Of a stretch of DNA of 64,000 bases, positions 20,625-33,569 are shown piece after piece; within the stretch, counting starts at the first letter, position 1, and the number at the start of each line of letters is the position of its first letter. Below the pieces are notes generated by a model. The model did not search any database. It was not told where the DNA came from and saw only the letters and a list, made by a program, of their open reading frames with translations. Made by a program: the position numbers and the translations under genes. This DNA comes from an uncultured Candidatus Poseidoniales archaeon (lineage in GTDB: Archaea > Thermoplasmatota > Poseidoniia > Poseidoniales > Thalassarchaeaceae), in contig CACELO010000002.1 of assembly GCA_902560445.1 (NCBI GenBank), forward strand, positions 66,468 through 130,467, read 5' to 3'.

Positions 20625-20709
20625 TGGTGCAGGGGACAGGATTTGAACCTGCGAAGCACTACGCACTGGGACCTAAACCCAGCCCCTTTGACCGCTCGGG
20701 AACCCCTGC
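20625..20709 (-). tRNA. tRNA-Leu (anticodon UAG), class II with a long variable arm, CCA encoded
   Basis: The reverse complement reads GCAGGGG-TT-CCCG...GGG-CTGGG-TTTAGGT-CCCAG-(TGCGTAGTGCTTCGCA)-GGTTCAAATCC-..CCCCTGC-A-CCA. The acceptor, anticodon and T arms all pair. Confidence 0.85.
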
Positions 20710-21833: not shown

Positions 21834-22721
21834 TCAATTTCGAGTCCAAGATGGAATGAATACATCTCTCCAATTCGGAGTTGCAAGATATTCTTCCTCG
21901 GTAAAGAATGACCTTGCATAAATCGAAATAAAGTCGATAATTAGAACAACAATGTAGATAATAATCAGGTATGCAAATACCTTGTCATATTGTAAAAATC
22001 TAAGATACAGATCGATGTAATATCCAATTCCTCCTGCACCGACAATGCCGATTACAGTACCAGAACGGAAATTATATTCAAACATGAATATCGAGTGAGA
22101 AATTAGATCATTTGCGGCTTCAGGAATAACTACGTTAACTGCTACTTCCCAACGACTCAAGCCTATTGCATTCGCCGCATCCAAAGGAGTTTTTGTCAGA
22201 CCCTCAATTGATTCATACTGTAATTTTCCAAGATATCCCACTGTGTAAATTGTCATTGCCAGAACGCCAGCTAATGGACCTAAGCCGACTAGAATAACCA
22301 AGAAAATAGCCCAAATCAATGCTGGAAGACTCCTACATGCTGAGATAAGAAAGCGGGTAGGGTAAGATATCCATCGCGGGCTTAAATTTCTTGAAGCCAT
22401 GATTGACAAAGGTAATGTTACAACCATACCAAATACAGTTGCAACAAACGCAATCTTTAGCGTCTCAATAACTCCCTTCCAAGCGGTTGAGCAAGTGAAA
22501 TCGAAAATTGGTTGGGCAGTACAAACAGGATATGTTTGAGGCTCTAGAACGCTCATATCTGGTGGCCAAAGAGACTGAAAGAAGAATCTGACAAGATTAT
22601 CTGGGCCACCTGCTAATCTACCCCAGTCGCCAACCATTCCGTTTAGAATTACAATTGCAAGCAAAAGGAGAATCCATAGCACCAGAGCCATCTTTTCGCC
22701 ATCTACTGCTATCTTCTTCAT
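21834..22721 (-). CDS. ABC importer permease, PhnE family
   Basis: 295 aa, 6 TM. It has the binding-protein-dependent transport motif region 'IEGLTKTPLDAANAIGLSRWEVAVNVVIPEA' and a 4-nt overlap with the ATPase gene. Confidence 0.8.
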   Translation of the reverse strand: MKKIAVDGEKMALVLWILLLLAIVILNGMVGDWGRLAGGPDNLVRFFFQSLWPPDMSVLEPQTYPVCTAQPIFDFTCSTAWKGVIETLKIAFVATVFGMVVTLPLSIMASRNLSPRWISYPTRFLISACRSLPALIWAIFLVILVGLGPLAGVLAMTIYTVGYLGKLQYESIEGLTKTPLDAANAIGLSRWEVAVNVVIPEAANDLISHSIFMFEYNFRSGTVIGIVGAGGIGYYIDLYLRFLQYDKVFAYLIIIYIVVLIIDFISIYARSFFTEEEYLATPNWRDVFIPSWTRN

Positions 22722-23428
22722 GAATTCAACACCACAGCTTTTGGTTTGGTAATGAATGGATTCACTCTTCCATCATCAATAACTAGGAGGCGATTTGCCA
22801 TTGACTTGGCTCTAGAAATATCATGCTCGACAACGATTAATGCTGAATTATTATCTTTCACGTAGCTTGTCACGCTTTCCAAAACCATAGCCAATGTTTC
22901 TTCGTCTAATTCACTCAAAAATTCATCTGCTAGAATTAATCTTGGTCGCTGAGCCAATGTTCTGGCCGTTGCGACTCTTCTCTGTTGGCCACCGGACAAC
23001 CTCCTAATTGGTTCTCTTGACTTTTCCTTAAGCCCCATTTGTTGAATTGCATTGGTAACTCGTTCCTTTCTTTCCTTCCTATCATTAGTTCCAGCTCGAG
23101 CACCCAACATTACATTGTGCCTAACACTTGCATGACGAACTAAACCCAATTTTTGTGGAATATACCCTAGTGCGCCACGGAGAGGTTTCGACGGAATTTC
23201 TGCACCACACACTGTGATCGAACCGGAAATTGGACGTATTAGTCCCGCAATTGTACCAAGTAAAGTTGACTTCCCGATACCAGAAGGGCCCGCTATGGCC
23301 ACTATTTCACCAGGGAATATTTCGAGATTGGGAATACTGACTAAGGGTGATTCAGTTTCATATCCGATTACTATATCTTCGAGGGAGACAATCGGATTTT
23401 CTGAACCCATACCCTCGGACAACTCCAA
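22718..23428 (-). CDS. ABC importer ATP-binding protein, PhnC family
   Basis: Walker A 'GPSGIGKST', signature 'LSGGQQRRVATART', Walker B 'ILADEFLSELD'. Confidence 0.85.
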   Translation of the reverse strand: MELSEGMGSENPIVSLEDIVIGYETESPLVSIPNLEIFPGEIVAIAGPSGIGKSTLLGTIAGLIRPISGSITVCGAEIPSKPLRGALGYIPQKLGLVRHASVRHNVMLGARAGTNDRKERKERVTNAIQQMGLKEKSREPIRRLSGGQQRRVATARTLAQRPRLILADEFLSELDEETLAMVLESVTSYVKDNNSALIVVEHDISRAKSMANRLLVIDDGRVNPFITKPKAVVLNS

Positions 23429-23441
23429 AGCCCCCTTGTAA

Positions 23442-23457
23442 TTTAGGCGGCCCTAAA
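23442..23457. promoter_or_regulatory. 16-bp palindrome TTTAGGCGGCCCTAAA (copy 1 of 4); candidate operator
   Basis: An inverted repeat 14 nt 5' of the phnC-like ATG. ATATAT (23461-23466) lies just upstream on the transcribed strand. Confidence 0.55.
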
Positions 23458-23514
23458 CCAATATATGGTATTGATGGGTTTAGTGATAACAAAATATCTT
23501 ACGAATCAGATAAC

Positions 23515-25611
23515 TTATATCGATTCTTGCAAGAATGAATAGGCTCCGGGTACAACACTTACCACCTCAGATAGCAAGCCAAGATGTTCTTGTGAATTTG
23601 TTCTAACAATCCCTGTACCATCGAGTATATTGTTTAGAATTTCATCACCACAGATTTCCCTATTATTATCTGAATTTACCTTGTGTGTAGAAATATCGTA
23701 ACAACCAGTATATGTTCCAAATCCGGGTCTAGAATAATTCTCTAGATACATCTGATAATTCAAAGTAACTAAGGCGTTGAGAATAGCGGCTCTACTTCTA
23801 GAATCAAGAGTCGAAGGGTTGTACATTACAGATTCACTTGGAGACACACCGACTTGACCCAAAGATAGGTACTGGTCAATTTCCATGCACCAATCTTGAT
23901 TTTCTTGTTCTTCTTGATTACAATTTTCTTCTAGTGCATCTTCTCCGACGAATGCTATTTCACTTACATTTTCGGATAGGCAGCTAATCGCACCTACCTC
24001 TCCCGCAGGGGTGCTTGAAGATGAAAGAAGAGATGATTGATTTCCAAAATAGCCGCGTATTGTTTCGATAATCTCGACATTTTCTTGATTAGGCGAATAA
24101 TACTCATTTTCAATTAGATAATGAATAGGAAGAATTGTGTGAATTGGAGATTGAGAACCGGTGAAGCAAGACACTCTTCCCTGCATCATTGCAAATGGAT
24201 CGGTGCTAGATTCATTGTCTGAACTTGCGGTAGCCAATTCTCCTAAATTTGAGACTAAGGCCATAGAATACCGCTGAGTCAATTGATCTTTGTTTTGTAT
24301 GGCTCCTAGAACTGATAGATTATGTAATTTCCATCCAATTAACGAAGAAGATGAAGGAAGAAATCCAATATGAGCCTCGCCTGTTTCAATTGATTCAATC
24401 ATTTCTGATTGAGAATTAACATAGTGAATTGAAACATTAATTCCTAATTCTATGGATAAAAATTCGGCTAAATGAATCGGGTCACTATTGGTTTCTAATT
24501 TTGATTCATCTAGTTCAAATGCAACAATTAATTCTTCTATTGTTATTGTTATTGATTGACTTCCATTGTCGGTATAATAAGCTGAAATCCCAGGGATATT
24601 CGAAACCAGAGGCGTGTATATACCAAGATGAGATTCAGAATCTGTAGAAACTACACCCTTTGTCCCTAGTGTGTTGTAGAGAATTTCGCTGTAATCCTCG
24701 TTTGAACTAAAGTCAATTAGAAAATCCGTAAGTTCACTGATTACTAAATCATCATCAAAATTAGAATGAGTCATGAAAACATCACTGGGGGTCTTAGCGA
24801 ATGGTTCGAGAGAAACATATCTCGAGGCATCCAAACACCATTCTTCGACATTATTTCCATTTTCTGTGGTGCAGTATTGAGAGGCCGTGTTATCCTTCGC
24901 AAATGCAACCTCACCGGAACCATCTGAAAGACATCTTAGAGCCCCTGAAAATCCATAGTACTGTGTGCCAGGTTCCGGAATTGATGAGTTTTCGTTAAAG
25001 AATTGAAAAATTGTATTTCTTAGAGATTCGATATCATTTGGATCGCCAATTACATTTGCATACCCCAATCCAAGGAAGAATCCCATTGGAACCATCATTC
25101 CTGTTGAGTGTAACCAACCCGTATGGCAGGAAGTTTTGCCTTGCATCAGTGAGAATGGATTTGTTAGCGGATCATCGTCAAAATATGCTTCTGCGATATC
25201 GCTATCGTCGAGAACCCAAGCGAGAGAATTGTAGTATGTCCTGCCGTCTGATTTTTGGTCCGCTGCAAAAGCCTGCAAACCGTATTGATTCCACCCAATC
25301 CAAGCAGCACCGCTATCCATTAGAGCGATGTCGGCATTTCCAAACCTTAGTGCCTCGAGTATCGCTGCTTCTGAATCAACGGCATATATTGTAAAATCAA
25401 ATCTACTGTTTTGGGTAAGAATTTCTGCCAGCATCTCAGGATTAGTTTCTGACTCAAGCATACCTTCGGACACTTCGAATGCCAGAACAATGGGAGTTCT
25501 TGTTTGATTATTTGATTCTTCAGAATCACTCAAGCAACCAGAGAGAGTGCTAGAAAGCAGGATAATGGTATAACAAATGACCAGTATTTTGTAATGTCTT
25601 TTTGTCGGCAT
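23515..25611 (-). CDS. bilobal transferrin-like/PhnD-superfamily substrate-binding lipoprotein (two tandem PBP-type lobes)
   Basis: Lipobox 'STLSGCLSD'. Lobe 1 (about aa 40-345) and lobe 2 (about aa 350-698) are paralogous to each other and to the 28476..29546 protein. Lobe 1 carries 'TSCHTGWLHSTGMMVPMG' and 'YYGFSGALRCLSDGSGEVAFAKD'. Confidence 0.8.
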   Translation of the reverse strand: MPTKRHYKILVICYTIILLSSTLSGCLSDSEESNNQTRTPIVLAFEVSEGMLESETNPEMLAEILTQNSRFDFTIYAVDSEAAILEALRFGNADIALMDSGAAWIGWNQYGLQAFAADQKSDGRTYYNSLAWVLDDSDIAEAYFDDDPLTNPFSLMQGKTSCHTGWLHSTGMMVPMGFFLGLGYANVIGDPNDIESLRNTIFQFFNENSSIPEPGTQYYGFSGALRCLSDGSGEVAFAKDNTASQYCTTENGNNVEEWCLDASRYVSLEPFAKTPSDVFMTHSNFDDDLVISELTDFLIDFSSNEDYSEILYNTLGTKGVVSTDSESHLGIYTPLVSNIPGISAYYTDNGSQSITITIEELIVAFELDESKLETNSDPIHLAEFLSIELGINVSIHYVNSQSEMIESIETGEAHIGFLPSSSSLIGWKLHNLSVLGAIQNKDQLTQRYSMALVSNLGELATASSDNESSTDPFAMMQGRVSCFTGSQSPIHTILPIHYLIENEYYSPNQENVEIIETIRGYFGNQSSLLSSSSTPAGEVGAISCLSENVSEIAFVGEDALEENCNQEEQENQDWCMEIDQYLSLGQVGVSPSESVMYNPSTLDSRSRAAILNALVTLNYQMYLENYSRPGFGTYTGCYDISTHKVNSDNNREICGDEILNNILDGTGIVRTNSQEHLGLLSEVVSVVPGAYSFLQESI

Positions 25612-25908
25612 TGATCAAAACCTCTGTCTACCCGACTCTTGCTCAGGATGCTGATTTTTCAATGTTAGTCCTGAAGGAAATAACATAATTTTCAGTTTAA
25701 TCCTGGTGTTGACAGGGGAACCTGTGATGTGTACAGATGCTCCTATGTGACGCTGTTAGAGTCCCCCGTGCCAACGGGTATTGCCAATGCTATTGGCTAA
25801 GGTTGTTGACAGGGGGCCTATTGCGTTCGAATACGAAATTCGAATGTAGGTGTCAGGCGCTGATACGCCCCCTGCCAACTGTTTTGTCTTATCGACTGGT
25901 TACGTACT

Positions 25909-27144
25909 TCATTGGAGAGTTCCAATGTCTTCGGCTGTGATGCCAAATGCATCCCAGACTGGCTGTAGATAGGAGCGGATATCCGCTTCGTAATCTGCTG
26001 TTGCATCTCCATCATTCTTCAGATCGAAGATTTCGAGAATCTTGTCATTGTAGTAATTAGCATACCACCCAAATGCCTCGCACTCCTCCTCTGACATACC
26101 CTCATGCTGAGCGTGTGTCACTGAATTATAGCATCCTGTGAATTCCTCTCCACTCGGATCGTTTGGAGAAGTGTAGTTCTCCAGATACATGTATGCCTCG
26201 CAGGATGCCTGTGAGCTATCCGATGAGACCGTGTGAGATACCATGTTGTAGCAGATCGAAGTGTACTCAGCGACATATGCCTCGATTACCCTGTAGAAGG
26301 CGTGACCCTCTGCCTGGTGCTTGTCGTAGTCTGCAGTATCTCCAGCAGCTAGGTCGTCCGTCATCTTTGATGCGTACCTCACAGAAGCCTGTGAGTAGAC
26401 GATTACAATATTCTTCAGAACCTCGTCGCGTGCGTCGACTACTCCTTGCATATCTTCATTCTGAAGTGCAGTCAAGCCAGCGTTCATTGCGGCTAGAGTA
26501 GCGATGTTTGTAGCATCACCAGTCCCAAAGTTGCCCCCTCTCTTGGCAGCGGTTGCATATGGCCCACATCCATCGTAATCATGGTTGGAATCGTCAGGAC
26601 CATGGTAGAAAGCCCATCCTTCGTCCCAAGCGTGTTGAGCGTCATCGGCCCCCCAGTTTCCTGCTTCCGCCTTGATGATTGCAGCGTTGAGTTCATGGAT
26701 TGCATAAGCAGTCATCACACCATTCTGGATTCCCTTTTCGACTGCTTGATCTCTGACTGTGTCAGATTCTCCCTCGAAAGGACCTGTGCCATCAATAGCC
26801 GCAGATACGAAGTCATTCCATGAGCCGTCTGCATCATAGTATGCGTCGTAGGCGTGGTTCTTGCCGGAAGCATCTGCGAAGCCCATGAGGGTCCTGTAGG
26901 AACCGTCGGACTTCTCCGCGTGCTTTCCATCATCATAGATATCCTTCACACCGTCCCAATCGTATGCACCAGAGAGGTCCTTAATATCGCAGACATCACC
27001 CATTAACATTCGGTGATTATCAACGTTGGAAGCATACGTGTATCCTCCATCTGCGTCATCAAGATCTACATCATCTCCTGCACAACCGGCAATCGCACTG
27101 CCGATTAATACTAAAGTCATCATTAAAGTCATTGTTCTATTCAT
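25909..27144 (-). CDS. acidic lipoprotein of unknown function (mostly helical, Cys-pair modules near the C-terminus)
   Basis: Signal/lipobox 'LIGSAIAGCAGDD'. 411 aa. Two operator-like palindromes lie directly 5' of the gene. Confidence 0.7.
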   Translation of the reverse strand: MNRTMTLMMTLVLIGSAIAGCAGDDVDLDDADGGYTYASNVDNHRMLMGDVCDIKDLSGAYDWDGVKDIYDDGKHAEKSDGSYRTLMGFADASGKNHAYDAYYDADGSWNDFVSAAIDGTGPFEGESDTVRDQAVEKGIQNGVMTAYAIHELNAAIIKAEAGNWGADDAQHAWDEGWAFYHGPDDSNHDYDGCGPYATAAKRGGNFGTGDATNIATLAAMNAGLTALQNEDMQGVVDARDEVLKNIVIVYSQASVRYASKMTDDLAAGDTADYDKHQAEGHAFYRVIEAYVAEYTSICYNMVSHTVSSDSSQASCEAYMYLENYTSPNDPSGEEFTGCYNSVTHAQHEGMSEEECEAFGWYANYYNDKILEIFDLKNDGDATADYEADIRSYLQPVWDAFGITAEDIGTLQ

Positions 27145-27146
27145 AG

Positions 27147-27162
27147 TTTAGGTCTCCCTAAA
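27147..27162. promoter_or_regulatory. 16-bp palindrome TTTAGGTCTCCCTAAA (copy 2 of 4); candidate operator
   Basis: Begins 2 nt 5' of the ATG (27144) of the 411-aa lipoprotein gene. Confidence 0.55.
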
Positions 27163-27190
27163 CCGGCCGGATAGCGAATCGTATATGAAA

Positions 27191-27206
27191 TTTAGGGCGC
27201 CCTAAA
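27191..27206. promoter_or_regulatory. 16-bp perfect palindrome TTTAGGGCGCCCTAAA (copy 3 of 4); candidate operator
   Basis: Lies in the divergent intergenic region 27145-27299 and abuts the A/T-rich 'GTATATGAAA' (27181-27190). Confidence 0.55.
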
Positions 27207-27299
27207 CTCTTGAATCGTGCGTGGAAAATTGTCATATAACTGATGAGCAGTCAATTGAATTGGAGACGAGGTTTTTTTACTCATTTCTATTCGTAAATA

Positions 27300-27905
27300 T
27301 TGGTTTTAGTTACAAGGAGAGGATTAGTCTTGAGGAATTTGGGGCATAGATTGGGGGCTTCTGGTACCAAAATGGAAAATACCATTGACGGGCTTATGAA
27401 TTCATTAGAACAGGTAAATAATAGAAAATTTAAGTATTGGGAATTTGATATTAGAGAATCTTTGGATGGAATAATTTTTGTCTTTCATGATGATCAAATA
27501 CTTGTAGATGGAGAATTAATCGAAACCGCCAAATTGAATTTCTCTGAAATAATGAAAGCGGGTGAGGATTTGGGGGTAAAGATACCTACATTTTCAGAAG
27601 TTGTTGAAATATTGGGTGACCGGAAAGAAGATGTCATGGTTGAAGTGAAAGAATTGAGAACTGATGCCGCTAGAAGAACCGTAATCACTGCGATTTCTAG
27701 TAAACCAAATTGGAAACTGATGGCTACTCCAACTAGATTCTTGGAATCTTTTCCTAGTGAATCCAGGGAGTATTGGGAGCGATTTACTCGAGATTTGGAC
27801 GTAGAATTCGTTAGAGTTGGCCGCCATAAATTGGACCTTTTCAGCGCTTCTAAATCCTATTTTAGGTGGAAATTTGCTCGATTTAAATGGTTTTTCGGGA
27901 TTTAA
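27300..27905 (+). CDS. glycerophosphodiester phosphodiesterase (GDPD)-like protein
   Basis: 'LGHRLGASGTKMENTIDG...YWEFDIRESLDGIIFVFHDD' matches the GDPD N-terminal HR..EN...E.D...DG..V..HD pattern. It is short (201 aa). Confidence 0.6.
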   Translation: MVLVTRRGLVLRNLGHRLGASGTKMENTIDGLMNSLEQVNNRKFKYWEFDIRESLDGIIFVFHDDQILVDGELIETAKLNFSEIMKAGEDLGVKIPTFSEVVEILGDRKEDVMVEVKELRTDAARRTVITAISSKPNWKLMATPTRFLESFPSESREYWERFTRDLDVEFVRVGRHKLDLFSASKSYFRWKFARFKWFFGI

Positions 27906-27968
27906 TAATGATGACTATTTTGAATTAATTTTTCCTACAATTGATTATGAACCCCATTACTCACCCTA

Positions 27969-28403
27969 ATGTTGAAGAAAATGGTCAGTACTGATGAGTT
28001 AATTGTGGCGCTAAATAATGCTCTCGCTTGGGAATTAAGGGCTATTGCAATGTATGCTCACTATTCCGCATACGTTTCAGGGATTCATAGATTACAACTT
28101 TCGGTATTCTTCAATAATGAAGTAACAGAATCAATTGCGCATGCTTCAACCGTAAGATCCGCTATAGTGAAATTACACGGTAAGGCCACTACGGAGAGGG
28201 CAGAAGACCCTATTTTACACTCAATGGACTTCCGAGATATGTTGGAAGAGGCACACAAAACTGAGTTGAAAGCTAGCGAGACATATGGAGAAATTTTACC
28301 AATGGTTGAGCAAATTGGGGATAGCGAACTTTTTGATGCCCTGGAAGTTATTTACTTTGATGAACTGAGATCTGTAGAAGAATTGAGAATGATGCTTGGT
28401 TGA
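27969..28403 (+). CDS. ferritin-like four-helix-bundle protein (bacterioferritin/Dps-like superfamily)
   Basis: 144 aa. 'ALNNALAWELRAIAMYAHYS', 'EVTESIAHASTVRSAIVKLHG', 'LEEAHKTELKA' and 'FDELRSVEE' resemble the E / E..H / E / E..H di-iron pattern. The spacing of the first E..H is one residue off. Confidence 0.55.
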   Translation: MLKKMVSTDELIVALNNALAWELRAIAMYAHYSAYVSGIHRLQLSVFFNNEVTESIAHASTVRSAIVKLHGKATTERAEDPILHSMDFRDMLEEAHKTELKASETYGEILPMVEQIGDSELFDALEVIYFDELRSVEELRMMLG

Positions 28404-28429
28404 GATTTAAACATACTATTTACCGTTAG

Positions 28430-28445
28430 TTTAGGGTGCCCTAAA
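28430..28445. promoter_or_regulatory. 16-bp palindrome TTTAGGGTGCCCTAAA (copy 4 of 4); candidate operator
   Basis: 31 nt 5' of the ATG at 28476. TTTAAA (28406-28411) lies upstream. Confidence 0.55.
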
Positions 28446-28475
28446 CATTATCAAACAAACCGATTTCGGAGATGT

Positions 28476-29546
28476 ATGGAAAAAACTAGTTGGGCTGGTT
28501 GGGCCAAAGCTAACAAAGCACTTTTGCTCGCTGGATTAGTGCTATCTGCGACCGTATTGTATCTCATTTTCGACATTAATTACGAACAATGTGATGATCA
28601 AGATAACTGTATTACAATCGCTTTTGAGGTACAAGATGACTATTTGTATTTTGGAAAAGAGAACCCTCAGCACTTGGCAGACAAAATGAGTGCTCTGACT
28701 GGTATGGATGTTGAAATAATGCCTGTATCGAATTCCGGCGCGATAATCGAGGCTATCAATAATGGCAATGCGGATATTGGATTTGTAGATGGAGCGGCCG
28801 CTTGGCTTGCATGGGAAGTTTACGATTTGGACGTGCTAGCGGCAGAGTGGAAATTTGATCAAAGGACGTACTATAATGCGGCAGCCTGGGTGAAAAAGGA
28901 CTCTGAAATTGCAGACGCGTATCTAGATGATGATCCAGATACAGACCCATTTGCTTTAATGAATGGAAAAACGTCTTGCCATACAGGATGGCTGAAAAGT
29001 GCTGGGATGTTGATTCCAATGGGTTACTTGATTGGAAATGGGTATGCCGAGGTGCGTGGAGATCCTGAAGAAATTACTTCACTACGAGATACAGTGACGC
29101 ATTTCTTCAACGAAGATTCAAGCATACCTGACGGAGGTACTCAATATTCCGGATATAAGGGGGCATTGAAGTGTATGATGACTGATCGCGGAGACGTTGC
29201 TTTAGTCAAGGATACAGCATATATGCTCTACTGTGACGAAAATGAGGACGGAATTGCAGATGGTCCTGATTGGTGTTTGGATAGAGATGAGCTCGTTATG
29301 CTCGAGTCATTTGGTCGAGCACCGAGTCACCCCGCTTTGTATAATCCCTCAGCTATGAATAACGAAACGGTCGAACTAATTCAAAATGCATTGGTGGATA
29401 TGAATAATGATGAAGAAGGTACAAAGATACTCTCCGATGTCTTAAACACTGAAGGAATGGTTGTTACGAATGCTACTGCTCACCTAGGCACATATGGTGC
29501 GGCTGTAGAGAACGTCCCTGGAATACAAGCATTTTTTGAGGATTGA
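28476..29546 (+). CDS. monolobal transferrin-like substrate-binding protein (PhnD superfamily) with N-terminal membrane anchor/signal
   Basis: Motifs 'NADIGFVDGAAAW', 'RTYYNAAAWVKKDS', 'GKTSCHTGWLKSAGMLIPMG', 'YSGYKGALKCMMTDRGDVALVKD' and 'APSHPAL' align with transferrin N-lobe ligand and anion-site motifs (recalled from the human serotransferrin sequence). Confidence 0.8.
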   Translation: MEKTSWAGWAKANKALLLAGLVLSATVLYLIFDINYEQCDDQDNCITIAFEVQDDYLYFGKENPQHLADKMSALTGMDVEIMPVSNSGAIIEAINNGNADIGFVDGAAAWLAWEVYDLDVLAAEWKFDQRTYYNAAAWVKKDSEIADAYLDDDPDTDPFALMNGKTSCHTGWLKSAGMLIPMGYLIGNGYAEVRGDPEEITSLRDTVTHFFNEDSSIPDGGTQYSGYKGALKCMMTDRGDVALVKDTAYMLYCDENEDGIADGPDWCLDRDELVMLESFGRAPSHPALYNPSAMNNETVELIQNALVDMNNDEEGTKILSDVLNTEGMVVTNATAHLGTYGAAVENVPGIQAFFED

Positions 29547-29592
29547 TCACACAATCCCAACTAGCGTACTGCCACAACGTTGAGGTTTCATA

Positions 29593-30798
29593 ATGAGAGT
29601 GACCATCACTATCCTAATTTTATTGATAATATCTCTATTTTCTGGATGTTTTTCAGACGATGGAGATGATTTTGATTGGACTGATCCCCAAACAACAGAG
29701 TGCAATTTAGGCAATAACCTAACTTGTACTAATTTGTTTCCGGGAGCTGGTACTCCTCATCACTCAGAAGTAAATCCTCAAACTAATGAATTATGGATAA
29801 TTTATCTCAGTGGAATGGTAAAAATTTGGCAAGATGATGAACTAATACAAGCTGGTGACTTAAGTGAAATTGTAAATAGATGCCATACAGAACAAGGATT
29901 GCTTGGATTTGCATTCGATGCCAACTATAATTCTTCCAAACAACTATTGTTATCATATGTGGAAAAAGGCAGCTGCGAAGGGGCGAATAATGCAGACCTC
30001 GTTCTTGCTTCAGTTGTTGTTACTGATGATGATATGATAAATTTGGACTCGTTAATCGTCTTGAAAACCGTAGAACAACCATACAGGAATCATAACGGGG
30101 GGCATTTACATGGTTTGGGTAATGGAGAATACCTCTGGGGAATTGGAGACGGAGGTGGAGCTAACGACCCAGAAAAGAATGGGCAGAATTCTGAAAATTT
30201 ATTGGGCACTATTGTTTACTTCCAATACTCAAATGGCGATGTTAATCCGATAATGGATTCAGAAAATGGAAACCCCTACATCTTGCACTATGGTTTGCGA
30301 AATCCATGGAAATTCGACGTGGGCCCTAATGAGGAACTATGGATTGCTGATGTCGGACAAAATTGTTGGGAAGAAATTAATTTGGTAAATTTGGTAAACA
30401 AATCAAACCTTGGGTGGTCAGAAAAAGAAGGATTCAGTGATTTTTCCGAAGGTGGAAGTTGTGAAGGAGGAGTTCTATCTGAAAATAATGAATTTACAGA
30501 CCCTGTCTTTGTCTATGGTCACAATAACGGAAATTGTTCCATAACCGGTGGCTTTTGGACTGAGAATACAATAATCTCAGACCAAGGTGGTTATCTGTTT
30601 GGAGACTTTTGTTCTGGTTCGCTATGGATTCTTTCCAATGGTGTAAATCACACATGGAAAGAGACCTATCTTGGTAACGTGGGGGGACTAATTGTAGGGT
30701 TTGGAGAAGGGGCTAATGGTGAGCTTCTGGTCTTTTTCTGGACTGGAGAAATCATACAAATCACTCAATCCGCTGCCGCCGATAGCAATATCGTGTGA
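29593..30798 (+). CDS. beta-propeller lipoprotein, PQQ-dependent glucose/sorbosone dehydrogenase-like
   Basis: Lipobox 'ISLFSGCFSDD'. 'EQGLLGFAFD', 'YRNHNGGHL', 'GDGGGANDP', 'YGLRNPWKFD' and 'ADVGQNCWEEIN' match the GSDH-family pattern. Confidence 0.7.
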   Translation: MRVTITILILLIISLFSGCFSDDGDDFDWTDPQTTECNLGNNLTCTNLFPGAGTPHHSEVNPQTNELWIIYLSGMVKIWQDDELIQAGDLSEIVNRCHTEQGLLGFAFDANYNSSKQLLLSYVEKGSCEGANNADLVLASVVVTDDDMINLDSLIVLKTVEQPYRNHNGGHLHGLGNGEYLWGIGDGGGANDPEKNGQNSENLLGTIVYFQYSNGDVNPIMDSENGNPYILHYGLRNPWKFDVGPNEELWIADVGQNCWEEINLVNLVNKSNLGWSEKEGFSDFSEGGSCEGGVLSENNEFTDPVFVYGHNNGNCSITGGFWTENTIISDQGGYLFGDFCSGSLWILSNGVNHTWKETYLGNVGGLIVGFGEGANGELLVFFWTGEIIQITQSAAADSNIV

Positions 30799-30817
30799 TA
30801 CCTGCTCCAGTATTGTG

Positions 30818-32815
30818 ATGAGACGCCAAGGCGCGCTTAGAATCGTGGTCATGATTACGATTATTGGAATGATGATTTCTTCGTTACAAATCGGCTACCA
30901 ACAAGGTGGTCTTGATGAATCTCAAGACAGAAGAGAACAGCTCGGCCCTGATGAGCCTACACTGGAGGAGCGATGTAGCGTCCTTACTTTCGAGGATATG
31001 TTTGAGTATACTAAAGCAGTATTCAATTTCACTATTGCCAATGATTGGAGTTCTGCCGAAATTGAAGCAGTTGCTTGGGTAAATGGGACTTTGGCAGATG
31101 ATGTAAGACAGAGTTTAGATGAATATATTGCACAAATCTACCCAAGTGGCGATGATGGCTGGATTTCTACCGATGAAAGGGAGGGAGTCAGAGCTATTGC
31201 TTCGGAGTGTGTTCAATACACGTTTACTAGAATGGGTATGCGTGATGGAAGTCCTCACAGAGGAGGTGACGGTACCGATTGGAAAAACACATCTTGGAAC
31301 GAAGACGAGGTCCTAGTAGAAGAATGGAATCTAGTCCCTCCTCGACATTCGGAATCGAGAGAATGTTCAGGGATTGGTAGTGGTAGCGATTGCTACGAGG
31401 TTCCGGTATATCCGGATAGTGAACGAGATTGCGACACCGAGGTAGATTCATCGAGCAGTCAAGATGAATGTAGAATGAAGTTATGGCTAAATGCTACCAT
31501 GATAATCTCCGAGATAAATGATCCAAGTGACTTCACAATAGCCTATAATGCCTCAAACATGAGTGGGGCTGAATATCATATCAAATTCCCCGTAACCGAA
31601 GGACTCCGACTAGATATGTGGGAGGAATGTGAAGGACGAGACGTGCAAGTGGATATGGGTGATTTTGCTGGTGTGGCTCCTCTGAGAGGTAGTTGTATTG
31701 GTGACGGTTCTAGCAGCTATGAACTTAATGAAAACGAAGATGGAAGTCTAACTTACTCCTTCTATCCCAACATGCCTCAGTGGCCTGTAGGAGAGGACCT
31801 GTTTGCCGACTTTACAACTGCACCAATCCCAGTGGACGACCCTCCTGTCTGGACTGATAGCGCACCGACAGATGGAGCCTGGTTCCCTCGTGCGAGTGGG
31901 GGGGCACAGATTATCGCGGACTGGAATGAAGTTCAAAATTGGTTCAATGATGAGGCTGGAGTATCGAACCTTGAGATGAATTGTAGAGGTGATGCAGGAT
32001 TAGTAATTACCTACTCACAACGAGAGTTGTCGATGGATGTACCAAGAGGTCAGGCAGGAGAGGTCACCTGTGAAGCAATCGACAGTTCTGGCCAATCCTC
32101 AGGAAATAGAACTTGGAATGTAGGAGTTCCATTCCAAATTTCAACTACAGATACTGAACTATCAGACCCACATCCGATTACTCTCTCTCCAACCGCTGGC
32201 TGGCCTGATCTATCTGTAGAACTCGGATTTTCCTCAAGCTTCGAAGAGGCAGGAACATATTACGGCCCATATTCAATCCAAGGCTCGGAAATAACTCAAG
32301 ATATTGCTGTGGTGGGACTTGTCCCCGGTCCAGTATATGTCGCTGTAATAGTAACCGGAGAAGGAGTTTATAGTTTGCAAGCGACTTATGATTTGGGGAT
32401 TCAAAAGGCCAGCAGTCCTCCAATAATGACAGTCACCACCGAAGGGTGGGATGGTAATTCATGGTCAATGAGTGGTCAATTCTCCGACCCCGATGGTGAA
32501 ACGATTAGTTTCAGCCTGATGATTGATGGGGCCTCAGTTGGAAGTATTACGGTCAGTGGCAATATGTGGTCTACACCTGCGATTGATTTCTCAGTATGGA
32601 CAGAAGGTTCACATATTGTTGAGGTTCAAGCCTGTGATGAGTCTGGCCTATGTTCAAGTCAGCAACGTAGCGTTGACAATACTCATTTGTTCGTTGATCC
32701 TGAACCTGAACCTGAACCACCGAAGGATAACTCTTCGGTTCTTCCCTCAATGGGATTGGCCGGTCTGATTCTTGCGGCATCTGCCGCACTCATATACTCG
32801 GGCCGACGCGACTGA
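30818..32815 (+). CDS. secreted acidic surface protein with Ig-like C-terminal domain and PGF-CTERM-like tail
   Basis: ORF track 30701..32815. I start at ATG 30818 (MRRQGALRIVVMITIIGMMISSLQ signal/anchor), which removes the overlap with the upstream gene. The C-terminus is 'LPSMGLAGLILAASAALIYSGRRD'. Confidence 0.7.
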   Translation: MRRQGALRIVVMITIIGMMISSLQIGYQQGGLDESQDRREQLGPDEPTLEERCSVLTFEDMFEYTKAVFNFTIANDWSSAEIEAVAWVNGTLADDVRQSLDEYIAQIYPSGDDGWISTDEREGVRAIASECVQYTFTRMGMRDGSPHRGGDGTDWKNTSWNEDEVLVEEWNLVPPRHSESRECSGIGSGSDCYEVPVYPDSERDCDTEVDSSSSQDECRMKLWLNATMIISEINDPSDFTIAYNASNMSGAEYHIKFPVTEGLRLDMWEECEGRDVQVDMGDFAGVAPLRGSCIGDGSSSYELNENEDGSLTYSFYPNMPQWPVGEDLFADFTTAPIPVDDPPVWTDSAPTDGAWFPRASGGAQIIADWNEVQNWFNDEAGVSNLEMNCRGDAGLVITYSQRELSMDVPRGQAGEVTCEAIDSSGQSSGNRTWNVGVPFQISTTDTELSDPHPITLSPTAGWPDLSVELGFSSSFEEAGTYYGPYSIQGSEITQDIAVVGLVPGPVYVAVIVTGEGVYSLQATYDLGIQKASSPPIMTVTTEGWDGNSWSMSGQFSDPDGETISFSLMIDGASVGSITVSGNMWSTPAIDFSVWTEGSHIVEVQACDESGLCSSQQRSVDNTHLFVDPEPEPEPPKDNSSVLPSMGLAGLILAASAALIYSGRRD

Positions 32816-32819
32816 GTTC

Positions 32820-33569
32820 GTGAGCTTCTCAGGCACCGTGGACAGAGAGTCGCATGAAGGGGGCCTCCTCGTTTCCTTTGAGGGACGTGCGCCGAGACTT
32901 GGGGCTACTTTACGAATAATCGGTGGAAAGCCGATTGGTAAGGTTAATTCAGTAATTGGAGCGATTGATGGGGCGTTTGTTCACATTCATCCAATTACAG
33001 ATCAAATAGAAGTCACAAGCACAATCGGCTCTCCGGTTGAAATCGCTCCAAGAGAGAAAAAAGAGTATCGTGGTCGTGGAAGAGATAGTTACTCGAAAAG
33101 AAATTCTCGCCGTGATAGGCGACATGGTGGGAATAATGACAGAAAAGGCGGAGATTGGACTTGTCCAAAGTGTAACAATTCTAATTTTGCCTTTCGAAAG
33201 AAGTGTAATCGCTGTGAAGCAGATAGGCCTCGAGATGGAGGAAGGAAATTCGAAAGAAAATTTGAACGAGGTGGTAACAATAAGCAAAAAGGAGGTGATT
33301 GGACTTGCCCTAAGTGCAACAACTCTAACTTCGCCTTCAGAGATAAATGCAATCGCTGTGATGCTAGTCGACCTAGCTCAGGTGGCAAGGCCCCCTCGAG
33401 AAGTAGATCCAACCAAAACCGAGGTCCTAGGCCTCAACGAGGCCCATCTGGACGAGGGCGAGGGCGAGCCCCGGGGAGCGCAAGTAAACCACGAAGATCT
33501 GGATTCAGAGGAACTGGCCGAGGTGGTCCTAGAGGTAATCGACCAGGAAGAGGTAGCGGTAGGCGCTGA
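32820..33569 (+). CDS. gar1: H/ACA RNP protein Gar1 fused to two RanBP2-type zinc fingers and an Arg/Gly-rich (RGG) tail
   Basis: The Gar1-like core 'GLLVSFEGRAPRLGATLRIIGGKPIGKVNSVIGAIDGAFVHIHP' has the same pattern as archaeal Gar1. Two copies of 'W-T-C-P-K-C-N-N-S-N-F-A-F-R-x-K-C-N-R-C' fit W-x-C-x2-C-x3-N-x6-C-x2-C exactly. The start is placed at GTG 32820, just after the upstream stop. Confidence 0.7.
   Translation: MSFSGTVDRESHEGGLLVSFEGRAPRLGATLRIIGGKPIGKVNSVIGAIDGAFVHIHPITDQIEVTSTIGSPVEIAPREKKEYRGRGRDSYSKRNSRRDRRHGGNNDRKGGDWTCPKCNNSNFAFRKKCNRCEADRPRDGGRKFERKFERGGNNKQKGGDWTCPKCNNSNFAFRDKCNRCDASRPSSGGKAPSRSRSNQNRGPRPQRGPSGRGRGRAPGSASKPRRSGFRGTGRGGPRGNRPGRGSGRR
33156..33359 (+). repeat. 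tandem duplication encoding the two RanBP2-type zinc fingers
   Basis: 33156-33215 and 33300-33359 encode near-identical 20-aa Cys4 units with flanking GGxxK(G)GDW context. Confidence 0.8.

What the first reader, a model, noticed from the sequence alone, without database searches (positions are those of the whole stretch)
21834..30798. Candidate iron-acquisition island: PhnCE-type ABC importer, three transferrin-like lobes, ferritin-like protein, unknown lipoproteins
Seen in sequence, this 9-kb block contains:
- a PhnE-like permease and PhnC-like ATPase (21834-23428);
- the bilobal binding protein (23515-25611);
- a 411-aa acidic lipoprotein (25909-27144);
- a GDPD-like protein (27300-27905);
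- a ferritin-like 144-aa protein (27969-28403);
- the monolobal transferrin-like protein (28476-29546);
- a GSDH-like beta-propeller lipoprotein (29593-30798).

Four promoter regions share one palindrome (separate finding). No C-P lyase or phosphonatase genes are present, which a genuine phosphonate locus would often have.

Inference: this is a co-regulated uptake/storage module for ferric iron rather than phosphonate. As far as I know such a system is not described for archaea.
Basis: inference. Interest (0 to 1): 0.75.

Follow-up and report, generated by a model that had tools for sequence, protein, structure and literature searches.

The report
Transferrin-type iron uptake locus, marine archaea
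In one of the ocean's most abundant planktonic archaea, a gene cluster annotated as a phosphonate transporter looks instead like an iron-repressed ferric-iron uptake system whose binding protein carries the complete iron-binding residue set of animal transferrin.

Summary
In detail: all eight ORFs lie at the stated coordinates. The window is about 98% identical to a Ca. Thalassarchaeum (Marine Group IIb) MAG.

The iron-not-phosphonate reading is supported and made stronger.
1. The 356-aa monolobal protein's closest solved relatives are transferrins (family profile vs lactoferrin 1.5e-38). It has Asp105, Tyr133, Tyr227, His285 plus Thr170 and Lys174 at transferrin's iron and anion positions; all six are invariant or nearly so in 84 homologs.
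2. The "unknown" 411-aa lipoprotein is an FEA1-related lipoprotein.
3. The palindrome TTTAGG-N4-CCTAAA occurs 4 times, only in this locus (0.15 expected). It matches the ChIP-seq motif of the iron repressor TroR of Haloferax volcanii. In related loci it also precedes DtxR-family repressor, FTR1 iron permease, flavodoxin, ferrochelatase and ZIP-fusion genes.
4. Binding protein, ATPase and permease form one operon in relatives.

Corrections:
- The bilobal protein's lobes are degenerate (DYTHFD and PRTSEE).
- The ferritin-like gene is confined to this species group and lacks one di-iron ligand.
- The locus is a syntenic core region, not an island, and probably extends to 32815.

No biochemistry or expression data exist. 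I rate it a new variant of a known kind.

The parts
21834..22721 (-). ABC importer permease, PhnE type
   Evidence: TIGR01097 PhnE 233.7 bits (cutoff 216.7); Pfam BPD_transp_1. Found next to Tf-like genes in 30 of 44 long loci.
22718..23428 (-). ABC importer ATPase (PhnC-like, below the PhnC cutoff)
   Evidence: ABC_tran 1.5e-31; TIGR02315 132.5 bits, below the 266.1 cutoff. Found in 32 of 44 loci. The start may be the TTG at 23428 or the ATG at 23410.
23442..23457 (.). Operator O1 (TTTAGGCGGCCCTAAA) between a TATA-like CCATATATTGG and the ATPase gene start
   Evidence: The same position is conserved in 23 distinct ATPase promoters.
23515..25611 (-). Bilobal transferrin/PhnD-like lipoprotein with degenerate ligand sets (N-lobe DYTHFD, C-lobe PRTSEE); lipobox LSGC
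   Evidence: About 30 of 119 bilobal relatives are of this divergent type, and each one seen in a long locus is accompanied by a canonical paralog.
25708..25879 (-). Two tandem hairpin elements of about 70 nt (GTTGGCAGGGGG...CCCCCTGTCAAC) in the Fea1-to-bilobal spacer; role unknown
   Evidence: RNA fold z = -5.7. Conserved at the same position in 7 other loci. No Rfam match.
25909..27144 (-). FEA1-related lipoprotein (lipobox IAGC)
   Evidence: NF038033 358 bits (cutoff 250); Pfam Fea1 3e-19. NCBI names an identical protein 'FEA1-related lipoprotein'.
27147..27162 (.). Operator O2 (TTTAGGTCTCCCTAAA), ending 3 bp from the Fea1 start codon
27191..27206 (.). Operator O3 (TTTAGGGCGCCCTAAA), 44 bp from O2, next to a TATA-like element of the Fea1 promoter; it is also in the divergent GDPD-like promoter region
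   Evidence: The two-operator arrangement about 44 bp apart is conserved in Fea1 promoters.
27300..27905 (+). Short GDPD-like protein, predicted cytoplasmic; role in the system unknown
   Evidence: Pfam GDPD 4e-7; catalytic motifs HR..ENT..ExD..HD..ExK retained. Adjacent to Tf-like genes in 25 of 44 loci.
27969..28403 (+). Ferritin-like four-helix-bundle protein, restricted to this species group
   Evidence: Pfam Ferritin 1e-15. Nearest structure is 2qqy at 4e-14, with one ExxH His aligned to Ser. Present in only 2 of 44 loci, both close relatives of the window.
28430..28445 (.). Operator O4 (TTTAGGGTGCCCTAAA) abutting a TATA-like AACATTAT, 30 nt before the ATG of the monolobal gene
   Evidence: Conserved in 65 distinct Tf-gene promoters.
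28476..29546 (+). Monolobal transferrin-like substrate-binding protein with an N-terminal membrane anchor and the full ligand set D105, Y133, T170, K174, Y227, H285
29593..30798 (+). GSDH-like beta-propeller lipoprotein (lipobox FSGC), probably co-transcribed with the Tf-like gene
   Evidence: Pfam GSDH 3e-22. Weak PDB similarity to YliI, 1e-6. Follows Tf-like genes in 33 of 44 loci.
30815..32815 (+). Secreted, C-terminally anchored protein of about 666 aa and unknown function; probable regulon member (the ORF listed starts at 30701)
   Evidence: Only a weak Big_9 hit. Homologs are in 22 of 44 loci, and 12 operator sites in other genomes lie just upstream of them.

Best explanation
This is the high-affinity ferric-iron acquisition locus of a Marine Group IIb archaeon, repressed by a DtxR/TroR-type regulator when iron is sufficient.

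Shown by sequence analysis:
- The membrane-anchored monolobal protein belongs to the PhnD/transferrin superfamily and has transferrin's four iron ligands and the anion-site Thr. Lys replaces the anion-site Arg.
- In relatives its gene forms one operon with the PhnC/PhnE-type ATPase and permease.
- Four copies of the TroR-type operator TTTAGG-N4-CCTAAA overlap the core promoters of the ATPase, Fea1 and Tf-like genes.

Inferred:
- When iron is low the repressor leaves the operators.
- The surface-anchored transferrin-like protein captures inorganic Fe(III) together with a synergistic anion and hands it to the ABC importer.
- The degenerate bilobal paralog, the GSDH-like lipoprotein, the roughly 666-aa surface protein and the GDPD-like enzyme are conserved accessories of unknown role.
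- The ferritin-like gene is a recent addition specific to this species group.
For: Transferrin character of the binding protein:
- The best solved relatives by sequence are ovotransferrin and lactoferrin (3e-20 for the single sequence, 1.5e-38 for the family profile), and no PhnD appears among the 60 best listed.
- D105, Y133, Y227 and H285 align with the Asp, Tyr, Tyr and His iron ligands, and T170 and K174 with the anion-site Thr and Arg.
- D, T, K, the second Y and H are invariant in 84 of 84 monolobal homologs, and the first Y in 83 of 84, down to about 52% identity.
- 85 of 119 bilobal relatives, and one trilobal relative, keep the set in every lobe.
- 43 of 45 long loci have at least one canonical lobe.
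- The binding proteins fail the PhnD equivalog (30-41 bits against a cutoff of 261).

Transport coupling:
- Tf-like gene, ATPase and permease are contiguous and co-directional in L005 and in many DtxR loci.

Iron context:
- FEA1-related lipoprotein.
- The operator is identical in form to the ChIP-seq motif TTTAGGC-NNN-CCTAAAANAN of TroR, which represses iron-uptake genes in iron-replete Haloferax (PMC10783522).
- There are 165 core sites in 1.18 Mb of related loci, where about 1 is expected from base composition. They flank Tf-like, ATPase, Fea1 and big704 genes, and also ferrochelatase, flavodoxin and an M28-ZIP fusion.
- 62 of 72 DtxR-family genes carry the operator at their own start. 26 of them are divergent from an FTR1 iron permease gene, and about 30 lie next to Tf-like/ABC genes.
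- The regulator keeps the DtxR/IdeR primary-site residues Met, Cys, Glu and His in 79 of 80 loci.

Promoter geometry:
- The operators overlap TATA-like elements or the start region, as expected for a repressor.
Against: - There is no biochemical, genetic or expression evidence for any of these proteins.
- The permease passes NCBIfam's PhnE equivalog cutoff, and Pfam Phosphonate-bd scores slightly higher than Transferrin on the binding proteins.
- At the fold level the model matches AioX, ArrX and PtxB as well as it matches transferrins.
- The anion-site Arg is Lys, so the synergistic anion may not be carbonate.
- The binding protein next to the ABC genes in this window is the degenerate bilobal one, not the canonical monolobal one.
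- A conserved GDPD-like gene and a neighbouring gpsA are more reminiscent of organophosphate metabolism.
- No DtxR/TroR gene lies within the 64-kb window, and the adjacent regulators came from MGIII-like or unassigned contigs.
- Leaderless transcription and the TATA assignments are inferred from sequence only.
Confidence: 0.75

Rival explanations
1. It is what the annotation says: a phosphonate, phosphite or organophosphate ABC importer (PhnCDE-like) used for phosphorus scavenging, with the GDPD-like enzyme processing imported phosphodiesters.
For: PhnE equivalog passed at 233.7 against 216.7 bits; Pfam Phosphonate-bd 82-86 bits on the binding proteins. A GDPD-like gene is conserved next to the binding-protein gene in 25 of 44 loci, and gpsA is adjacent in 19 of 44. 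Tully 2019 lists phosphonate transport as a core MGII trait. Foldseek ranks AioX, ArrX and PtxB alongside transferrins.
Against: The binding proteins score 30-41 bits against the PhnD cutoff of 261. Their closest solved relatives by sequence are transferrins, and transferrin's metal ligands are conserved throughout the family. The operator is the TroR iron-box and is shared with DtxR, FTR1, flavodoxin and ferrochelatase genes. No phosphonate catabolic genes were found in the window. An FEA1-related lipoprotein is in the cluster.
Confidence: 0.08
2. It is a metal-uptake system under a DtxR-family regulator, but for a metal other than iron: manganese, zinc or another hard trivalent cation.
For: DtxR-family regulators include Mn sensors such as MntR, which is among the PDB hits. 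One regulon member is a ZIP-family fusion. Transferrins are deposited with other bound metals, including Al, Ti and Yb (entries listed).
Against: The regulator has the Met/Cys/Glu/His primary site of Fe-sensing DtxR/IdeR, where the aligned MntR sequence has no Cys (the link to metal selectivity is from my own knowledge). The regulon content is iron-specific: FTR1 iron permease, flavodoxin, ferrochelatase and FEA1. The identical motif is iron-responsive in Haloferax. A ligand set with two tyrosinates plus Asp and His is the classical Fe(III) site (established knowledge of transferrins).
Confidence: 0.07
3. The transferrin-like proteins are not transport substrate-binding proteins. They act instead as surface iron sensors or sequestering proteins, as AioX-type binding proteins signal to kinases, and the ABC transporter carries something else.
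For: The structurally similar AioX and ArrX are deposited as ligand-binding proteins and not as transporter components; that they act as sensors is my own knowledge. In this window the canonical monolobal gene is about 5 kb from the ABC genes, on the other strand. In L001 the GDPD, Tf and GSDH genes occur without ABC genes within 10 kb.
Against: Tf-like, ATPase and permease genes are contiguous and co-directional in L005, L091 and many other loci. ABC genes accompany Tf-like genes in 30-32 of 44 loci. The ATPase promoter carries the same operator. No histidine kinase was seen next to these genes in the gene tables returned.
Confidence: 0.05

Closest known systems
Eukaryotic transferrins (serum transferrin, lactoferrin, ovotransferrin; Pfam PF00405)
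   Same: The closest solved relatives by sequence. Same Asp/Tyr/Tyr/His iron-ligand positions, the same anion-site Thr, the shared SCHTG...SAG motif and two aligned conserved cysteines. Mono-, bi- and trilobal forms exist in these archaea.
   Different: Membrane-anchored or lipoprotein forms, mostly monolobal. Genetically coupled to an ABC importer and not to receptor-mediated endocytosis. Lys replaces the carbonate-binding Arg. Only about 21-24% identity and TM about 0.55-0.6 to transferrin lobes. Iron binding is untested.
PhnD/PtxB/AioX family phosphonate, phosphite and oxyanion binding proteins with PhnCE ABC transporters (Pfam PF12974; TIGR03431/TIGR01097/TIGR02315)
   Same: Same fold. Pfam Phosphonate-bd is matched above its cutoff. 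The permease passes the PhnE model, and the operon layout is binding protein, ATPase, permease.
   Different: The binding proteins fail the PhnD equivalog by a wide margin. They carry transferrin's metal ligands. The system is under an iron-box operator. No phosphonate catabolic genes are linked in the window.
Bacterial ferric-binding-protein ABC systems (FbpABC, FutABC/IdiA, the 'bacterial transferrins')
   Same: The proposed mechanism is the same: a binding protein captures unchelated Fe(III) with a synergistic anion and delivers it to an ABC importer (FutABC is described in PMC7676907).
   Different: A different branch of binding proteins and a different transporter family. No Pfam or NCBIfam hit to Fbp/Fut-type families appeared among the hits listed. 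Here the transporter is PhnCE-type, and the ligand set is transferrin's Asp/Tyr/Tyr/His.
Algal FEA1 and ISIP2a (phytotransferrin)
   Same: The 411-aa lipoprotein matches Pfam Fea1 and NCBIfam FEA1_rel_lipo. It is iron-regulated by inference, like the low-iron-induced FEA1 and ISIP2a (PMC7676907). An FTR1 permease also belongs to the archaeal regulon; in Chlamydomonas FEA1 is expressed coordinately with FTR1 (title of reference B3 in PMC7676907).
   Different: A prokaryotic lipoprotein encoded beside an ABC importer. No solved relative was found. Iron binding is untested.
TroR/DtxR-family iron regulon of Haloferax volcanii (operator TTTAGGC-NNN-CCTAAAANAN)
   Same: Same 16-bp palindrome, tandem copies, placement at promoters of iron-uptake genes, and an archaeal DtxR-family regulator. 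DtxR-family genes carrying the operator occur in related Poseidoniia contigs.
   Different: [quoted passage not shown] Here the targets are transferrin-like, FEA1-like and PhnCE-like genes, with the operators 3-50 nt from start codons. The regulator gene of this genome was not located.

Membership tests
Transferrin (Pfam PF00405) | Score above the Pfam gathering threshold | tested here: met
   Monolobal protein 64.9 bits and bilobal protein 73.9 bits, against a cutoff of 20.3.
Transferrin (Pfam PF00405) | Iron ligands Asp, Tyr, Tyr, His at the lobe cleft - monolobal protein | tested here: met
   D105, Y133, Y227 and H285 align with ovotransferrin D60, Y92, Y191 and lactoferrin Y192, H253. D, the second Y and H are invariant in 84 of 84 homologs, and the first Y in 83 of 84.
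Transferrin (Pfam PF00405) | Iron ligands Asp, Tyr, Tyr, His - the two lobes of the bilobal protein | tested here: not met
   In the N-lobe (D-Y-T-H-F-D) the second Tyr is Phe and the His is Asp. In the C-lobe (P-R-T-S-E-E) all four ligands are replaced.
Transferrin (Pfam PF00405) | Synergistic-anion site Thr plus Arg at the helix N-terminus | tested here: inconclusive
   Thr170 is conserved. The Arg position is an invariant Lys174 within the motif SCHTGWLKSAG. A basic residue is retained, but anion specificity cannot be read from sequence.
Transferrin (Pfam PF00405) | Reversible Fe(III) binding | not testable with these tools
   Needs purified protein.
PhnD phosphonate-binding protein (TIGR03431 equivalog) | Score above the curated cutoff | tested here: not met
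   30.0 bits (monolobal) and 40.9 bits (bilobal) against a cutoff of 261.1. The broader TIGR01098 subfamily also fails, at 46.6 and 67.7 bits against 112.
PhnCDE phosphonate ABC transporter | PhnE permease and PhnC ATPase equivalogs | tested here: inconclusive
   PhnE is met (233.7 against 216.7 bits). PhnC is not met (132.5 against 266.1 bits).
PhnCDE phosphonate ABC transporter | Linkage to phosphonate catabolism (C-P lyase, phosphonatase) | tested here: not met
   None among the window ORFs scanned, and none in the gene tables of related loci. Whole genomes were not scanned.
FEA1-related lipoprotein (NCBIfam NF038033) | Score above the curated cutoff, plus a lipobox | tested here: met
   358.2 bits against a cutoff of 250. 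N-terminal ...AIAGC lipobox read from the translation.
TroR/DtxR-type iron regulon | Operator matching the experimentally defined motif | tested here: met
   The four window sites fit TTTAGG-N4-CCTAAA. TroR ChIP-seq motif: TTTAGGC-NNN-CCTAAAANAN (PMC10783522).
TroR/DtxR-type iron regulon | A DtxR-family regulator gene associated with the operator | tested here: inconclusive
   Met in related contigs: L085, and 62 of 72 metagenomic DtxR loci, carry operators at the dtxR start. Not found within this 64-kb window or within 8-10 kb of MGII Tf-like genes. The rest of this genome could not be searched.
TroR/DtxR-type iron regulon | Iron-dependent binding and repression | not testable with these tools
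   Needs EMSA or ChIP, or expression data.
Ferritin / bacterioferritin (Pfam PF00210) | Complete di-iron ferroxidase ligand set (Glu, ExxH, Glu, ExxH) | tested here: not met
   The Pfam domain is matched (58.3 bits against 24.5). In the alignment to 2qqy the second ExxH His is Ser, and the first motif is spaced ExxxH.
Glycerophosphodiester phosphodiesterase (GDPD) | Full-length match and curated cutoff | tested here: inconclusive
   Pfam 30.8 bits against 23.6, but only profile positions 3-110 of 244. The NCBIfam equivalog scores 24.6 against 264. The N-terminal catalytic motifs are present.
PQQ-dependent glucose/sorbosone dehydrogenase (GSDH) | Curated family cutoff | tested here: inconclusive
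   Pfam GSDH 79.6 bits against 25 is met. TIGR03606 24.9 bits against 434.6 is not met. PDB similarity is weak.

The most novel reading that the evidence does not exclude
Marine Group II and III archaea carry true transferrins, in mono-, bi- and trilobal forms with complete iron and anion ligand sets, that still work as substrate-binding proteins of PhnCE-type ABC importers. That would make them a living intermediate in the proposed PhnD-to-transferrin transition, either related to the source of eukaryotic transferrins or exchanged with it. It would also mean that the 'phosphonate transport' counted as a core trait of the ocean's most abundant planktonic archaea is in fact high-affinity uptake of unchelated Fe(III).
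Probability: 0.35. Interest if true: 0.85.

Novelty: new variant of a known kind. Interest (0 to 1): 0.7.

Why it matters
Marine Group II archaea are among the most abundant microbes in surface seawater, where iron is often scarce, and they have no cultured representative. I found nothing in the searchable literature on how they acquire iron. The only statement about this transporter class calls it phosphonate transport (Tully 2019).

If the reading here is right, three things follow:
1. A widely repeated metabolic trait of MGII is mis-assigned, which affects models of marine phosphorus and iron cycling.
2. Unchelated Fe(III) uptake by a transferrin-type protein is not confined to eukaryotes. 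It exists in archaea coupled to an ABC importer.
3. The published idea that transferrin and phytotransferrin arose from phosphonate-binding periplasmic proteins gains a concrete, abundant prokaryotic intermediate. In it the transferrin-like protein and an FEA1-like protein are encoded side by side under one iron-responsive operator.

The operator also gives a ready marker for defining the iron regulon of uncultured Poseidoniia, and for reading their iron status from metatranscriptomes.

Tried and rejected
- **Regulator in the window.** I looked for a metalloregulator with Pfam scans of the small and medium ORFs and with tblastn of the L085 DtxR against the window and 89 loci. None was found apart from L085 itself.
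- **'Island' hypothesis.** G+C of the locus (0.41-0.44) is no different from the flanks, and the flanks are syntenic in L007 and L008. Rejected.
- **Fea1 structure.** The protein has no PDB sequence relatives. The large homolog search returned only sequences at least 98% identical, so no useful alignment for structure prediction could be built and I did not attempt it.
- **AFDB50 fold search.** The library was unavailable.
- **McQuaid et al. 2018.** The paper is not held, so I could not check if archaeal sequences were in its phylogeny.
- **Literature searches.** Ten searches, including combinations of transferrin, phytotransferrin, PhnD, MGII, Poseidoniales and DtxR, found no description of this system. 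Two apparent hits matched the word 'transferring'. Two major MGII papers do not mention iron or phosphonate at all.
- **Leaderless transcripts.** The Red Sea dRNA-seq paper has no statement on leaderless transcripts or TATA boxes in MGII, so promoter assignments remain inference.
- **Fea1-to-bilobal spacer.** Rfam found nothing there. The hairpin element has too little variation to separate an RNA structure from a DNA palindrome.
- **Bacterial origin of some homologs.** A few loci are labelled Rhodobacteraceae, Pedosphaera, Yoonia or Deltaproteobacteria. I judged these to be mis-binned MGII contigs, because the proteins are 54-66% identical to the archaeal ones and two of these loci (L036, L075) carry the archaeal operator. 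I did not verify this further.

Full report
**Observation.** Pfam and NCBIfam give the following.
- 21834-22721(-) is a PhnE-type permease (TIGR01097, 233.7 bits against a cutoff of 216.7).
- 22718-23428(-) is an ABC ATPase whose best NCBIfam match is PhnC, but below its cutoff (132.5 against 266.1 bits).
- 23515-25611(-) is a 698-aa lipoprotein with two lobes, each matching both Phosphonate-bd and Transferrin.
- 25909-27144(-) is not unknown. It is an FEA1-related lipoprotein (NF038033, 358 bits against 250; Pfam Fea1, described as 'low iron-inducible periplasmic protein', 3e-19).
- 27300-27905(+) is a weak, partial GDPD match.
- 27969-28403(+) has a Ferritin-like domain.
- 28476-29546(+) is a 356-aa protein matching Phosphonate-bd and Transferrin.
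- 29593-30798(+) matches GSDH.

The palindrome TTTAGG-N4-CCTAAA has four exact copies in the 64-kb window, all in this locus, against 0.15 expected. The rest of the window encodes housekeeping functions: shikimate pathway, aconitase, pyruvate:ferredoxin oxidoreductase, thiolase and others. It has no C-P lyase, phosphonatase or metalloregulator genes.

**Organism.** The monolobal gene is 98% identical to that of a MAG named Candidatus Thalassarchaeum sp. (MGIIb-O1). A scan of one genome per GTDB species found 392 stretches encoding relatives. The 80 best are almost all Poseidoniales (MGIIa Poseidoniaceae and MGIIb Thalassarchaeaceae) or MGIII. The locus has the same G+C as its surroundings. It sits in a conserved neighbourhood (gpsA on one side, adenosylhomocysteinase and a giant surface protein on the other) that recurs in relatives about 54% identical. 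It is a core chromosomal locus, not an acquired island.

**Are the binding proteins transferrin-like or PhnD-like?** By sequence, the closest solved structures to the monolobal protein are ovotransferrin and lactoferrin (3e-20). A profile of 29 family members reaches lactoferrin at 1.5e-38, and no PhnD-type protein is among the 60 best listed. The alignments place:
- D105 on ovotransferrin Asp60;
- Y133 on Tyr92;
- T170 on Thr117;
- K174 on Arg121;
- Y227 on Tyr191 (lactoferrin Tyr192);
- H285 on lactoferrin His253.

These are the four iron ligands and the two side chains of the synergistic-anion site. That assignment is established knowledge of transferrins. The motif SCHTGWLKSAG mirrors transferrin's SCHTGLGRSAG, and the cysteines in SCHTG and GALKC are conserved in both families.

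Across 84 monolobal homologs down to about 52% identity, D, T, K, the second Y and H are invariant, and the first Y is present in 83 of 84. An AlphaFold model (pLDDT 85.6) matches transferrin lobes (21-24% identity) and AioX, ArrX and PtxB (13-17% identity) about equally well, at E about 1e-14 and TM about 0.55. The protein is therefore an intermediate in the PhnD/transferrin superfamily that carries transferrin's metal site. It fails NCBIfam's PhnD equivalog by a wide margin (30 bits against 261).

**The bilobal protein is different.** Its N-lobe reads D-Y-T-H-F-D at the six positions and its C-lobe P-R-T-S-E-E. Of the 119 bilobal sequences scored (118 retrieved relatives plus the window protein):
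- 85 have the canonical set in both lobes;
- one 1156-aa protein has three canonical lobes;
- about 30, including the window's, are of this divergent type.

In 45 long loci, 43 have at least one canonical lobe. Every divergent bilobal gene is accompanied by a canonical mono- or bilobal paralog. So 'three transferrin-like lobes' is right at the level of fold, but only one of them has the full iron site. What the divergent paralog binds is unknown.

**Gene linkage.**
- L005 and many other contigs have Tf-like gene, ATPase and permease as a contiguous co-directional unit.
- L003 and L004 have Fea1, ATPase, permease, GDPD, Tf and GSDH in a row.
- L008 reproduces the window's arrangement at about 54% identity.
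- Among 44 loci of at least 15 kb, the Tf-like gene is accompanied by GSDH in 33, ATPase in 32, permease in 30, GDPD in 25, the homolog of the 704-aa ORF in 22, gpsA in 19 and Fea1 in 18. The ferritin-like gene appears in only 2, both close relatives of the window.
- The trilobal protein lies next to a Peripla_BP_2/FecCD/ABC system.

**The operator.** The palindrome is present in every related locus examined, upstream of the Tf-like genes, Fea1 and the ATPase gene. Across 89 loci (1.18 Mb) the 14-bp core occurs 165 times, where base composition predicts about one. Nearly all sites flank Tf-like, ATPase, Fea1, bilobal or big704-homolog genes. Other neighbours are:
- a DtxR-family repressor (Fe_dep_repress, Fe_dep_repr_C and FeoA domains), divergent from a Tf-like gene with three operators between them (L085);
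- ferrochelatase (three loci);
- flavodoxin;
- a peptidase-M28/ZIP transporter fusion;
- a DUF454 protein.

Eighty metagenomic contigs encoding relatives of that regulator were fetched.
- In 62 of the 72 with upstream sequence, operators sit at the regulator's own start.
- 26 have an FTR1-family iron permease divergent across the operators.
- About 30 have Tf-like/ABC genes alongside, often as permease, ATPase, Tf-like, then operators, then dtxR.
- The regulator keeps the residues aligned with Met10, Cys102, Glu105 and His106 of DtxR/IdeR in 79 of 80 cases. The aligned MntR sequence lacks the Cys. That this distinguishes Fe from Mn sensors is my own knowledge.

Most directly, ChIP-seq in Haloferax volcanii defined the motif of the DtxR-family regulator TroR as TTTAGGC-NNN-CCTAAAANAN. 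It is often found in tandem, and TroR was shown to repress iron-uptake genes under iron-replete conditions (PMC10783522). That is the same 16-bp palindrome. The corynebacterial DtxR box TTAGGTTAG(G/C)CTAACCTAA shares the outer TTAGG/CCTAA pentamers but not the spacing (PMC1382209).

**Promoter geometry (inference from sequence).**
- At Tf-like genes, the operator's 3' half abuts a TATA-like AnATTAT element, and the ATG follows about 25 nt later. This suggests leaderless transcripts with the operator in the BRE/TATA position.
- Fea1 has two operators about 44 bp apart, one next to a TATA-like element and one ending 3 bp from the ATG.
- At the ATPase gene, the operator lies between CCATATATTGG and the start.
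- All of these are repressor positions.
- The bilobal gene has no operator of its own. It lies downstream of Fea1 across a 298-bp spacer.

**Mechanism proposed.** When iron is sufficient, a TroR/DtxR-type repressor loaded with Fe(II) occupies O1-O4 and blocks initiation. When iron is scarce, the genes are expressed. The membrane-anchored monolobal protein then binds unchelated Fe(III) with a synergistic anion and delivers it to the PhnE/PhnC-type importer, and the FEA1-related lipoprotein helps concentrate iron at the surface.
- *Shown:* homology, conservation of the ligand positions, operon linkage, operator identity and the gene content of the regulon.
- *Inferred:* iron binding, the transport substrate, the direction of regulation in this organism, and the roles of Fea1, the divergent bilobal protein, GSDH, the GDPD-like enzyme and the roughly 666-aa surface protein.

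The ferritin-like protein's nearest structure is an uncharacterised four-helix bundle (2qqy, 4e-14). One di-iron His is replaced by Ser.

**Rivals.**
- *Genuine phosphonate or organophosphate importer.* This is favoured by the PhnE match, the Phosphonate-bd domain, and the conserved GDPD-like and gpsA neighbours. It does not explain the transferrin ligand set, Fea1 or the iron-box regulon.
- *Another metal.* This is possible in principle for a DtxR-family system, but the regulator's Fe-type site and the FTR1, flavodoxin and ferrochelatase regulon members argue for iron.
- *A sensor role for the binding proteins.* This is contradicted by their operon linkage to ABC genes.

**Comparison with what is known.** Functionally the system resembles bacterial FbpABC/FutABC ferric-iron importers, but it is built from the PhnD/transferrin branch with a PhnCE-type transporter. 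[quoted passage not shown] This archaeal locus puts a transferrin-type binding protein, its PhnCE-type transporter and an FEA1-type protein under one iron operator.

Database curators have noticed the homologies. NCBI's names are 'PhnD/SsuA/transferrin family substrate-binding protein' and 'FEA1-related lipoprotein', and one JGI entry reads 'melanoma-associated antigen p97'. No paper in the searchable library connects MGII with transferrin or describes its iron uptake. Tully 2019 counts 'the transport of phosphonates' among core MGII traits.

**Verdict.** The regulatory part matches a known archaeal system. The transport part is a new variant of a known kind and awaits biochemical proof.

Noticed in passing
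window 25612-25908 (elements at 25708-25775 and 25805-25879, sense on the - strand): The 298-bp spacer between the Fea1 and bilobal genes holds two tandem hairpin elements of about 70 nt, with invariant termini GTTGGCAGGGGG...CCCCCTGTCAAC (RNA fold z = -5.7). The same element sits at the same position in L010, L011, L074 and L078 (two copies) and in L019, L020 and L056 (one copy), with different internal hairpins. There is no Rfam match and it does not occur elsewhere in the window. It could be an mRNA processing or stability element, an attenuator, or a DNA site.
   Followed up: partly
window 25909-27144 (Fea1 residues ~315-355) and 23515-25611 (bilobal residues ~615-654): The C-terminus of the FEA1-related lipoprotein and an insertion in the bilobal protein's C-lobe share a small cysteine-containing module, MYLENY(T/S)xP...(F/Y)TGCY(N/D)xxTH (BLASTP E = 2e-4). 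It may be a shared docking or binding module.
   Followed up: partly
L009:2018-5488 (and protein P0126): A 1156-aa trilobal transferrin-like protein with the canonical ligand set in all three lobes. It is preceded by two operators and followed by a CarboxypepD_reg protein and a Peripla_BP_2/FecCD/ABC transporter.
   Followed up: partly
L049:5568-7889, also L065 and L068: A protein of about 770 aa that fuses a peptidase-M28 domain to a ZIP metal transporter, with the iron operator directly upstream. I did not look into this fusion further.
   Followed up: no
window 18419-20566 (-): A 715-aa extremely acidic secreted protein with long Asp, His and Glu tracts, faint EF-hand and LDL-receptor-A hits and a PGF-CTERM-like tail. 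It lies beside the iron locus, and EF-hand-like proteins occupy the same position in L007 and L008. It may be a cation-binding surface protein. No operator lies upstream.
   Followed up: no
window 20628-20709 (-): A tRNA gene between the acidic protein gene and gpsA (Rfam tRNA, 51.5 bits).
   Followed up: no
window 32772-33569 (+): A 265-aa Arg/Gly-rich protein with two RanBP2-type zinc fingers (Pfam Zn_ribbon_RanBP 2.7e-19), a domain better known from eukaryotes.
   Followed up: no
L036, L060, L075, L077: Four loci encoding canonical Tf-like proteins come from MAGs or SAGs labelled Rhodobacteraceae, Pedosphaera, Yoonia and Deltaproteobacteria. L036 and L075 carry the archaeal operator, so these are probably mis-binned Poseidoniales contigs in public genomes.
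   Followed up: partly
proteins P0239-P0358: The 120 best database matches to the Fea1-like protein are all distinct sequences 98-100% identical to it. This points to a very abundant population with fine-scale microdiversity at this surface protein.
   Followed up: no
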